The position numbers and the translations under genes are program-made. Positions 5,162 to 6,808 of a stretch of DNA of 13,904 nt are shown here, piece by piece (positions within the stretch are counted from its first letter, which is position 1; each line of letters opens with the position of its first letter). A model generated the notes under the pieces. It made no database searches. It had not been told where the DNA came from and saw only the letters and a list, made by a program, of their open reading frames with translations. This stretch comes from an uncultured archaeon (GTDB taxonomy: Archaea > Asgardarchaeota > Heimdallarchaeia > Heimdallarchaeales > Heimdallarchaeaceae). The DNA lies in NCBI GenBank assembly GCA_964534625.1, contig CAZHRF010000063.1:1-13904 (forward strand), given 5' to 3'.

Positions 5162-6808
5162 TTGCAATCCACGGGAACAGTATTGACCCCTACAGAACTC
5201 AACAGGTTAAGTTCTGCTAAGCTAAGAAAACTGTTACAATTTAAAAATGTTCCCGGTCGATCAAAACTGGCTAGAAAAACTCAACAAGTGCATGCACTTG
5301 AAGGGATAGTAACGGAGAAGGACGTGAAACAATTGAAGATGAACGTACCTTGTCCGAGAGAGAAAAAAGGATACCCCTCCGAAAAAATACAGAAGACAAG
5401 AGGGACACCAGGCAAAGGTAAACGCATAAATGAACCAGTAGGGGGAATGGATGTTCATAGAGATTGTATCATGGTGGCTGTTGCCTCTCCTGCAGGAATA
5501 ATCAGTGAGAAGAAGATCACCAACAACCAAGCTGGGATCAATGACTTGCTAACGTATTTCATCCATCATAACGTAAAATCTGCAGCGTTGGAATCGACAG
5601 CTGAATATTGGTTGAAAATGTTCTGGAAATTGTCAAACGCGGGAATGTACATACTTGTCGCTAATCCGCTCCAAACAAGAGCAGTACAAGGAGTGAAAAC
5701 CGACACCCTAGATGCGAGGAGAATAGCATTGGGGTTCAGAGATGGACGATTAAAACAATCAGTAGTCTGTACAGCTGACCAATACGTCATGAGAAAACTC
5801 AATAGGAACGCAATCAAGAAAACGCAAGAAGCAACAAAAAAAGCCAACCAAATAAAAGCCATGTTAGAAATGTTTGACGGAACAGAATGGGTACACTCAC
5901 TGCACAAAACAAACAGAGGGAGAAGAATTATAAGTCGAACTATTACATTAAGCGACCAACAGGATATCCTCTATGTACTAACCGAGGGATATGCAACAGG
6001 ACCAAAACAAGTCACAGACACAAACACCCTCCTCCAATGGGCAAAAGAGTTAACCCAATTCTATACTAATATGGACACCAATTCAAACTACCGGATACTC
6101 TATGCGCAACTAGTTGAAGAATACGTGCACTGTCAACGAAGAACTCGAGAATTACGGACAAAGGTTGTTCAGTGTATAAGTAAAGATACTCATATGCTAA
6201 AGGCGCGTGGATTGTTACTAACCGTTCCTAATGTAGGAATAGATACGGCACTGACTATTATCGTAGAACTAGTGGACATCAGATACGTCTCGACCTCGAA
6301 AGGACTAGTAAAATGGGCAGGATTGGCACCTAGAGTTAACCAATCAGGCCATCGAAAAAGGCAGACAGGACGTATTTACAAAGGAGGAAACAAGTGGCTT
6401 AGAAGAGCAGTCTGGATTGTGGCAAAAAACTGTTATGCATATCACAACAAAACGGGTGATCCAATCGGGGCATTCATTGACCGATTATTCAACCAGAAAC
6501 ATAAACACTACTTTACATCTGTTACTGCGGGAGCACGAAAACTTCTGACGTATATCTACCAAGTATTAAAACAACAAAAACCATTTGAAGAGATATTCAA
6601 AGTTGAACACTTAAAGCAATTGAAGAAGAATCGTGCCCGTAAACACCGTATCCTCCAGAGAATCCTTAAAGACAGTAGCATATCTGAACTCTTACCCATT
6701 CTTGCTCACGCGTTGCAAGATGAGTGTGTTAAGCTGGAACAAACCGACCGCCAGTTTGCCCTACAAGTAGCGTTAAAATTGGGTATTGAACCCTATTATC
6801 CCACCTAA
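5162..6808 (+). CDS. IS110-family DEDD recombinase/transposase with N- and C-terminal extensions
   Basis: GMDVH (D97), ALEST (E144), KTDTLDA (D181/D184), TVPNVG, WAGLAPRVNQSG (S395), GNKWLRR, ARKLL. The frame is open back to CTG 5111, which follows SD-like AGGTGG (5099-5104), so the start may be earlier. Confidence 0.95.
   Translation: MQSTGTVLTPTELNRLSSAKLRKLLQFKNVPGRSKLARKTQQVHALEGIVTEKDVKQLKMNVPCPREKKGYPSEKIQKTRGTPGKGKRINEPVGGMDVHRDCIMVAVASPAGIISEKKITNNQAGINDLLTYFIHHNVKSAALESTAEYWLKMFWKLSNAGMYILVANPLQTRAVQGVKTDTLDARRIALGFRDGRLKQSVVCTADQYVMRKLNRNAIKKTQEATKKANQIKAMLEMFDGTEWVHSLHKTNRGRRIISRTITLSDQQDILYVLTEGYATGPKQVTDTNTLLQWAKELTQFYTNMDTNSNYRILYAQLVEEYVHCQRRTRELRTKVVQCISKDTHMLKARGLLLTVPNVGIDTALTIIVELVDIRYVSTSKGLVKWAGLAPRVNQSGHRKRQTGRIYKGGNKWLRRAVWIVAKNCYAYHNKTGDPIGAFIDRLFNQKHKHYFTSVTAGARKLLTYIYQVLKQQKPFEEIFKVEHLKQLKKNRARKHRILQRILKDSSISELLPILAHALQDECVKLEQTDRQFALQVALKLGIEPYYPT

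What the first reader, a model, noticed from the sequence alone, without database searches (positions are those of the whole stretch)
5183..5302. Rho_N/SAP-like helical domain fused to the N-terminus of the IS110 recombinase
Seen: ~90 aa precede the first catalytic Asp (D97). Residues ~8-47 (ELNRLSSAKLRKLLQFKNVPGRSKLARKTQQVHAL) fit the Rho N-terminal/HeH pattern 'L..L....LR.L.....I.GRSK..K..L..AL', followed by a K/R/P/G-rich linker. Known: typical IS110 proteins start a few residues before the G.D motif. Inference: an added nucleic-acid-binding module, perhaps binding the end hairpins or the extra RNA domain, defining an undescribed IS110 subtype.
Basis: partly seen in the sequence, partly recalled or inferred. 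Interest (0 to 1): 0.7.

Follow-up and report, generated by a model that had tools for sequence, protein, structure and literature searches.

The report
Asgard IS110 recombinase with Rho-N arm
A family of RNA-guided jumping genes from Asgard archaea carries a small extra helical domain of a DNA/RNA-binding type at the front of its recombinase and an extra stem-loop in its guide RNA; close relatives lack both, so the domain looks like an add-on grip, probably for that stem-loop, which no experiment has tested.

Summary
The IS110 recombinase (5162/5183-6808) has a conserved, folded ~50-residue domain (nt 5183-5350) on a disordered linker before the RuvC domain. It is in 91 of 120 homologues, is under purifying selection, and folds confidently (pLDDT 88). 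Pfam does not detect it directly. Its profile reaches proteins with above-cut-off Rho_N hits, and three fold libraries rank Rho_N/SAP/HeH domains first, with modest scores. Function is inferred. A sister clade of ~470-aa enzymes lacks the domain but keeps the same end hairpin and guides that match its own insertion sites. So the domain is not needed for guide recognition and is not tied to the end hairpin. It does co-occur with a third stem-loop at the 3' end of the bridge RNA. That link is one evolutionary event between neighbouring DNA segments, so it is suggestive only. Best reading: an accessory arm that binds this stem-loop (0.45). Rival: it grips flanking DNA (0.3). The 'flanking repeats' are the element's left end plus an adjacent 70-bp mini-element found 37 times in the genome. 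My searches found no paper and no earlier scan finding on other DNA describing this architecture. New variant of a known kind.

The parts
5183..5350 (+). Rho_N/HeH-type domain, four helices (P0001 residues 3-7, 11-20, 32-39, 45-50), with a basic loop motif (K21, P24, G25, R26, S27, K28) and K/R at 31, 32 and 35
5351..5416 (+). Variable, basic linker, predicted disordered
   Evidence: (pLDDT below 50 for residues 59-76)
5111..5182 (+). Poorly conserved N-terminal leader in the same open frame. CTG 5111 lies at the position where relatives have ATG or ACG; about 9 codons shorter than in relatives
5099..5104 (+). Ribosome-binding (Shine-Dalgarno-like) motif at the same place as in relatives
5417..6808 (+). 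IS110 recombinase core: RuvC-like DEDD domain (D90, E137, D174, D177), coiled coil, Tnp domain with S388, and a two-helix C-terminal extension
4817..4860 (+). Left end of the element: small hairpin 4825-4837 and T tract 4854-4860; shared by clades with and without the domain
4809..4816 (+). Left target flank (ends in the inferred AA core); identical to the 8-nt guide at 4930-4937
4882..5014 (+). Bridge RNA core: closing helix around a target-binding loop (guide 4930-4937) and a donor-binding loop (guide 4983-4990)
5028..5069 (+). Third RNA stem-loop with a conserved 2x2 internal loop (5041-5042 opposite 5053-5054); found only in elements that encode the domain; candidate ligand
6948..6964 (+). 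Right end: A tract (inverted copy of the left T tract) and donor half-site 6957-6964, identical to the donor guide
6965..7034 (+). Adjacent 70-bp mini-element (left end, short filler, right end), one of 37 copies in the genome; not part of the full element

Best explanation
The element is an IS110 bridge-RNA recombinase system of Asgard archaea. The core works as in IS621: DEDD plus serine chemistry, with two RNA loops choosing target and donor (residues and guide matches shown; recombination inferred). The N-terminal domain is a recruited Rho_N/HeH module on a flexible linker (conservation and predicted fold shown). It is an accessory nucleic-acid-binding arm and not part of catalysis or guide reading (inferred from the domain-less sister clade). 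Its most likely ligand is the third stem-loop at the 3' end of the element's own bridge RNA; binding there would help the enzyme load, hold or protect its RNA (inferred, untested).
For: The domain is conserved and selected, basic (net +8; family median +6), with near-invariant K/R positions. The same stretch in non-IS proteins scores above the Pfam Rho_N cut-off (P0136, P0141, P0148, P0174). The best structural match is Rho's N-terminal bundle (1a62, Z 5.3, rmsd 2.8, 45 aligned), and Rho_N clusters give TM 0.73-0.75. An isolated 40-aa Rho-N motif binds RNA (RHON1, PMC3458557). In elements with the domain, the start codon usually lies about 100-125 nt after the donor guide and a stem-loop fills the gap; in 14 of 14 aligned elements without it the distance is 46-59 nt and no such stem-loop exists. 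The 2x2-loop hairpin was found in 18 of 30 domain-bearing loci, including deep branches (L073, L075, L087); among 25 domain-less loci there were 2 hits, both at other positions. Both helices of the stem-loop show compensatory changes. In IS621 an accessory 5' stem-loop raises RNA binding (PMC11208158).
Against: The co-occurrence rests on one gain or loss, and the stem-loop and the domain's coding DNA are neighbours, so one deletion or insertion could move both with no functional link. The exact 2x2 motif is absent from 12 of 30 domain-bearing loci, although a stem-loop is predicted in those I folded. RHON1's Rho-N prefers single-stranded RNA and did not bind double-stranded RNA. SAP domains that bind DNA score as well structurally (FAN1 Z 5.2, PIAS1 Z 4.9). 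That the stem-loop is part of the mature RNA is not shown. The A7 alignment was fitted to the model, so its pair counts lean towards the structure.
Confidence: 0.45

Rival explanations
1. The domain is a sequence-independent (perhaps A/T-preferring) double-stranded DNA grip, like SAP/HeH domains on FAN1, Ku or T4 endonuclease VII. It holds DNA next to the target or donor site, raising local concentration or competing with archaeal chromatin proteins.
For: SAP/HeH matches tie with Rho-N within 1 Z unit; a Ku-linked cluster appears in the Atlas. The same motif subfamily sits on many unrelated, probably viral proteins, some in 2-3 copies, which fits a portable DNA tether. Guides are short and A-rich, so extra affinity would help. 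DNA binding by SAP domains is from my own knowledge of the family.
Against: The domain-less clade uses equally A-rich targets and the same end architecture and has spread widely. This reading does not explain why the third stem-loop tracks the domain.
Confidence: 0.3
2. The domain is a protein-interaction module: it packs on the recombinase core, links protomers, or recruits a host factor, as LEM domains bind BAF and the MANF/CDNF SAP-like domains bind BiP.
For: LEM and MANF/CDNF domains are among the structural matches (Z 4.0-4.6). The extra fourth helix is specific to the IS110 version.
Against: The conserved non-core positions are almost all K/R, and the linker is variable in length and predicted disordered, which fits a tethered nucleic-acid binder better.
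Confidence: 0.12
3. The domain autoregulates expression: it binds the stem-loop in the recombinase's own 5' leader and limits translation or read-through, without a role in the recombination complex.
For: Same co-occurrence as the best explanation. The stem-loop lies directly upstream of the gene, and weak start codons recur in the clade (Thr in place of Met in 13 of 27 close homologues; ACG in four loci read).
Against: The stem-loop ends about 30 nt before the ribosome-binding motif, so it does not cover it.
Confidence: 0.1
4. The segment is untranslated or a functionless relic, and the protein starts near codon 60-96.
For: This copy has no ATG before the domain; its leader is shortened and shows no constraint against relatives.
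Against: Purifying selection on the domain, including in the window's own comparisons; conservation down to about 33% core identity; conserved upstream starts in relatives.
Confidence: 0.03

Closest known systems
IS621 / ISCro4 (IS622) bridge recombinases (PMC11208160, PMC11208158; PDB 8wt6, 9t56)
   Same: RuvC-like DEDD domain, coiled coil and Tnp domain with catalytic Ser; upstream non-coding RNA with a target loop followed by a donor loop whose guides match the flank and the element end.
   Different: 541-565 aa here and about 570-600 aa in relatives, against about 300-460 aa for the family; extra N-terminal Rho_N/HeH domain, longer coiled-coil region and C-terminal helices; accessory stem-loop at the 3' rather than the 5' end; the clearly covarying 8-nt guides are on the 3' side of each loop; the two loops are enclosed by a closing helix; A-rich targets.
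Rho N-terminal domain (Pfam PF07498; PDB 1a62) and the Rho-N motif of RHON1 (PMC3458557)
   Same: Helix-extension-helix fold (Z 5.3; TM up to 0.75), same hydrophobic spacing, reached by profile through intermediate proteins.
   Different: No direct Pfam hit; extra fourth helix; fused to a recombinase; ligand unknown.
SAP / LEM / HeH domains (FAN1, PIAS1, emerin, T4 endonuclease VII)
   Same: Similar two-helix core with a basic loop (Z 4.0-5.2), appended to a DNA-processing enzyme as in FAN1 and endonuclease VII.
   Different: Scores are modest and tied; members do not reach the SAP or HeH cut-offs.
IS1111 group of the IS110 family
   Same: Short sub-terminal inverted tracts near both ends (T tract at left, A tract at right).
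   Different: The guide RNA lies upstream of the gene, as in the IS110 group, not downstream.

Membership tests
IS110 family RNA-guided recombinase | PF01548 plus PF02371; NCBIfam NF033542 above cut-off | tested here: met
   E 7e-18 and 4e-18; 167.5 bits against cut-off 140
IS110 family RNA-guided recombinase | DEDD catalytic residues and Tnp serine | tested here: met
   D90, E137, D174, D177, S388 invariant in 40 rows; D174, D177 and S388 align with the ISCro4 motifs
IS110 family RNA-guided recombinase | Bridge RNA with two loops whose guides match target and donor | tested here: met
   Exact 8-nt matches: target 14/18 and 13/14, donor 10/12 and 7/11 (with / without domain); within-group shuffles average 1.3-2.8, none of 2000 reach the observed value. 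Only the 3'-side guides were resolved.
IS110 family RNA-guided recombinase | RuvC domain at the N-terminus, 300-460 aa | tested here: not met
   89-113 residues precede the first Asp; 541-565 aa. This is the variant feature.
IS110 family RNA-guided recombinase | Circular intermediate, RNA expression and recombination activity | not testable with these tools
   Only assembled DNA contigs from one study are on hand
Rho_N (PF07498) | Direct score above the Pfam gathering cut-off | tested here: not met
   No hit for the window protein or any of 91 members
Rho_N (PF07498) | Homology by profile through intermediates | tested here: met
   Profile hits at E 3e-11 to 5e-4 carry above-cut-off Rho_N; 6 of 9 excised segments hit Rho_N. 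The HHalign value of 98.4% is not independent, since those segments were found with the same profile.
Rho_N / SAP / LEM (HeH fold) | Helix-extension-helix fold | tested here: met
   Top or near-top rows in four searches of three libraries are Rho_N, SAP or LEM domains; each score alone is modest (Z 5.3, Foldseek E 0.17 or worse)
SAP domain (PF02037) as distinct from Rho_N | Separation from Rho_N and LEM by sequence or structure | tested here: inconclusive
   Z scores tied within 1; intermediates hit all three models
Rho_N / SAP / LEM (HeH fold) | Binds nucleic acid | not testable with these tools
   Only indirect: charge and conserved K/R
IS1111 group | Sub-terminal inverted repeats with the guide RNA downstream of the gene | tested here: not met
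   Inverted A/T tracts are present, but the RNA is upstream

The most novel reading that the evidence does not exclude
This clade evolved a dedicated protein-RNA tether: a recruited Rho-N/HeH domain that recognises a specific third stem-loop of its bridge RNA, a natural counterpart of an engineered aptamer and coat-protein pair, added onto an RNA-guided recombinase in the archaeal relatives of eukaryotes.
Probability: 0.35. Interest if true: 0.72.

Novelty: new variant of a known kind. Interest (0 to 1): 0.52.

Why it matters
Bridge recombinases are being developed as genome-editing tools, and the solved ones matched here (IS621, ISCro4) are compact three-domain enzymes. This clade shows a natural way to extend one: an added binding domain, an added RNA stem-loop, and a sister clade without either that serves as a ready control. 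If the domain binds the stem-loop, it is a small portable RNA-protein pair and a new layer of RNA recognition in the family. If it binds DNA, it is a natural precedent for fusing DNA-binding domains to these enzymes. The guide assignments and element ends given here make the system directly testable. Interest is held down because HeH modules are often appended to unrelated proteins and the function is not shown.

Tried and rejected
Direct Pfam scans of the protein and of 91 domain copies: no Rho_N hit. Sequence search of the PDB with the domain profile: nothing. Atlas feature search: best 0.78, lead only. Foldseek on PDB and viral libraries: no E below 0.001. Complex prediction of domain against core: no verdict, score 0.26 under the mark; not used as evidence. 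Rfam: no match to the RNA. Sequencing runs: no RNA holder listed; the contigs of one study, possibly the source, showed no letter differences in the element and no circle junction, and contigs cannot show absence. My first idea that the flanking repeats are a host repeat targeted by the element was dropped: the left copy is conserved as the element's own end in relatives, and a simple insertion would not remove the 14-bp filler. Direction of change: both trees place the domain-less clade inside domain-bearing lineages, but a single domain-bearing clade is not rejected (p-AU 0.33), so gain versus loss is open. The 5'-side guides were not resolved. L028 has the third stem-loop without the domain but is a broken copy that also lost its start codon, so it is uninformative. 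The domain was not found in the other 82 genomes of the class, and only one weak broken match turned up in 300 sampled genomes of the phylum; these are incomplete assemblies. Ten paper searches found no description of this architecture; the library lacks most subscription papers.

Full report
Observation. The ORF at 5162-6808 (+) encodes an IS110 recombinase: PF01548 at residues 95-236, PF02371 at 351-429, and NF033542 above its cut-off. The first catalytic Asp is D97 counted from TTG 5162, or D90 in the database protein P0001 that starts at TTG 5183; P0001 numbering is used below. The quoted peptide is at nt 5195-5299. D90, E137, D174, D177 and S388 are invariant in the family alignment, and the last three align with the ISCro4 motifs.

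The domain is real. A homologue search gave 148 proteins, 120 listed. In 91 of them the first 56 residues align almost without gaps. R26 and L39 are invariant, and L6, L9, L14, L17, L18, K21, P24, K28, G41 and D47 are at least 90% conserved, while the leader before and the linker after are variable. At codon level the window differs from six relatives by pN 0.27-0.29 against pS 0.55-0.90 in the domain; the leader shows no such gap. AlphaFold2 gives four helices with pLDDT 87.8. In the full-length model the domain stays confident and residues 59-76 fall below 50. The domain therefore extends beyond the reported 5302, to about 5335-5350.

Start codon. Relatives have a ribosome-binding motif followed by ATG, or often ACG, about 120 nt after the donor guide. 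The window has the motif at 5099-5104 and an in-frame CTG at 5111, 120 nt after the guide. TTG 5162 and TTG 5183 are alternatives. A GTG inside the motif is in frame in relatives but out of frame here. The ATG at 5339 is not conserved. Every in-frame candidate upstream includes the domain, but this copy's start may be weakened.

What the domain is. Pfam does not see it directly. A profile search of 1.84 billion proteins gave 68 hits. Besides IS110 proteins and fragments, they include unrelated proteins with one to three copies of the two-helix core. Several of these score above the Rho_N cut-off (P0136, P0141, P0144, P0148, P0174), and 6 of 9 excised segments hit Rho_N, 5 SAP and 5 HeH. Structure searches agree: Rho's N-terminal bundle ranks first (Z 5.3, rmsd 2.8, 45 aligned), with FAN1 SAP, PIAS1 SAP, emerin LEM and endonuclease VII in the top 20. 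Rho_N clusters give TM 0.73-0.75 in the Atlas, and giant-virus Rho_N proteins are prominent in the viral library. Each score is modest for so small a helical domain; the agreement of sequence and structure carries the call. It is a Rho_N-like member of the HeH fold with an extra fourth helix, and Rho_N cannot be cleanly separated from SAP.

The element. Relatives fix the ends. The left end starts at 4817 (hairpin 4825-4837, T tract 4854-4860) and the right end stops at 6964 after an A tract. The second 'repeat' at 6965-7034 is a separate 70-bp unit made of a left end, a short filler and a right end, present 37 times on 28 contigs. I read it as a non-autonomous mini-element (inference). The non-coding region folds into a closing helix around two internal-loop domains (4882-5014) and a third stem-loop (5028-5069), with compensatory changes. 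The 8 nt on the 3' side of the first loop equal the left flank, and those of the second loop equal the right end. Exact matches were 14/18 and 10/12 in domain-bearing elements and 13/14 and 7/11 in domain-less ones, against 1.3-2.8 in within-group shuffles, none of 2000 reaching the observed counts. This identifies a bridge RNA. Named relatives are mostly Asgard archaea; one sits on a 4-kb contig in a bacterial bin, which may be misbinned.

The natural control. Twenty-one homologues of about 470 aa form one clade that lacks the domain. They keep the left-end hairpin and tracts and working guides. So the domain is not required for guide reading, and the end hairpin does not track it. What tracks it is the third stem-loop. 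Without the domain, the start codon lies 46-59 nt after the donor guide with no such structure. With it, the usual distance is about 100-125 nt, and a hairpin with a conserved 2x2 internal loop is found in 18 of 30 loci, including deep branches; the others that I folded had a different predicted stem-loop. The caveat is large: this is one evolutionary event, its direction is unresolved (p-AU 0.33), and the two features are neighbours on the DNA.

Mechanism. Shown: domain, predicted fold, selection, linker, element ends, 3'-side guides, and co-occurrence with the stem-loop. Inferred: nucleic-acid binding (about 0.85 in total, from fold family, net charge +8 and conserved K21, R26, K28, K32). 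Among ligands I favour the third stem-loop as part of the recombination complex (0.45), since an isolated Rho-N motif can bind RNA (PMC3458557) and an accessory stem-loop strengthens RNA binding in IS621 (PMC11208158). A general DNA grip is the main rival (0.3), then protein contacts (0.12), autoregulation through the same stem-loop (0.1) and a relic (0.03).

Comparison and novelty. The system is an IS110 member by domains, catalytic residues and guides. It departs from the described 300-460-aa architecture with an N-terminal RuvC domain (PMC11208160). Ten paper searches and keyword look-ups in the main bridge-RNA papers found no such fusion; absence from this library is not proof. The scan has not noted this fusion on other DNA, though it has seen HeH modules on many other proteins, which makes the recruitment itself unsurprising. 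Verdict: real, a new variant of a known kind, function inferred; interest 0.52.

Noticed in passing
window 6965-7034 and 36 other places on 28 contigs of G000: A 70-75 bp repeat made of the IS left end, a short filler and the right end, single or in tandem, with A-rich left flanks like the target guide: probably a minimal non-autonomous element moved by this recombinase.
   Followed up: partly
G000:C2, about 14085-14980, minus strand: A roughly 900-bp derivative with the left end, the first part of the bridge RNA and a right end, but no match to the recombinase.
   Followed up: partly
window 4930-4937 and 4983-4990: The clearly covarying guides sit on the 3' side of each loop, and the 5'-side guides could not be assigned, especially for the donor loop; the layout looks inverted relative to IS621.
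   Followed up: partly
window 5099-5113; L010, L013, L030, L083: Near-cognate codons (ACG in four loci, CTG here) stand where other relatives have ATG; 13 of 27 close homologues have Thr there. Possibly a brake on expression, or the in-frame GTG three codons earlier is the start.
   Followed up: partly
L082:1501-2820 (P0140): A Hodarchaeota protein named Rab family GTPase carries the IS110-type leader and four-helix domain at its N-terminus, with no bridge RNA upstream: possible capture of the domain by a host gene. Single sequence.
   Followed up: partly
L083:66-1314 (P0126): Complete three-domain RNA, leader and HeH domain fused in frame to an unrelated open frame in place of the recombinase core.
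   Followed up: partly
L028:1380-1470: Broken relative in which a deletion, apparently at a 7-nt direct repeat, removed the start codon and the domain but left the RNA.
   Followed up: yes
P0131-P0178: The same motif subfamily occurs on F-box proteins, a protein with an endonuclease VII domain, an ADP-ribosyltransferase-domain protein and two proteins that look by eye like tyrosine recombinases (untested); many resemble giant-virus proteins.
   Followed up: partly
window 6948-6964: The right-end donor half-site also looks like an archaeal TATA box with an A-rich run before it, and would face the RNA after circularisation; promoter function not tested.
   Followed up: no
window 6585-6808: Two long C-terminal helices beyond the Tnp domain, basic in the first; this copy ends about 8 residues earlier than its closest relatives.
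   Followed up: no
window 750-1442, minus strand: Fragment of a second transposase (Mutator/MULE-like Pfam hits).
   Followed up: no
window 1746-11270: The element sits inside a low-GC polysaccharide biosynthesis cluster (glycosyltransferase, nucleotidyltransferase and flippase by Pfam; epimerase-like and aminotransferase-like genes by eye).
   Followed up: no
G000:C20:38851-39132: A distant IS110 fragment (32% identity), the only other match to the recombinase in the genome.
   Followed up: no
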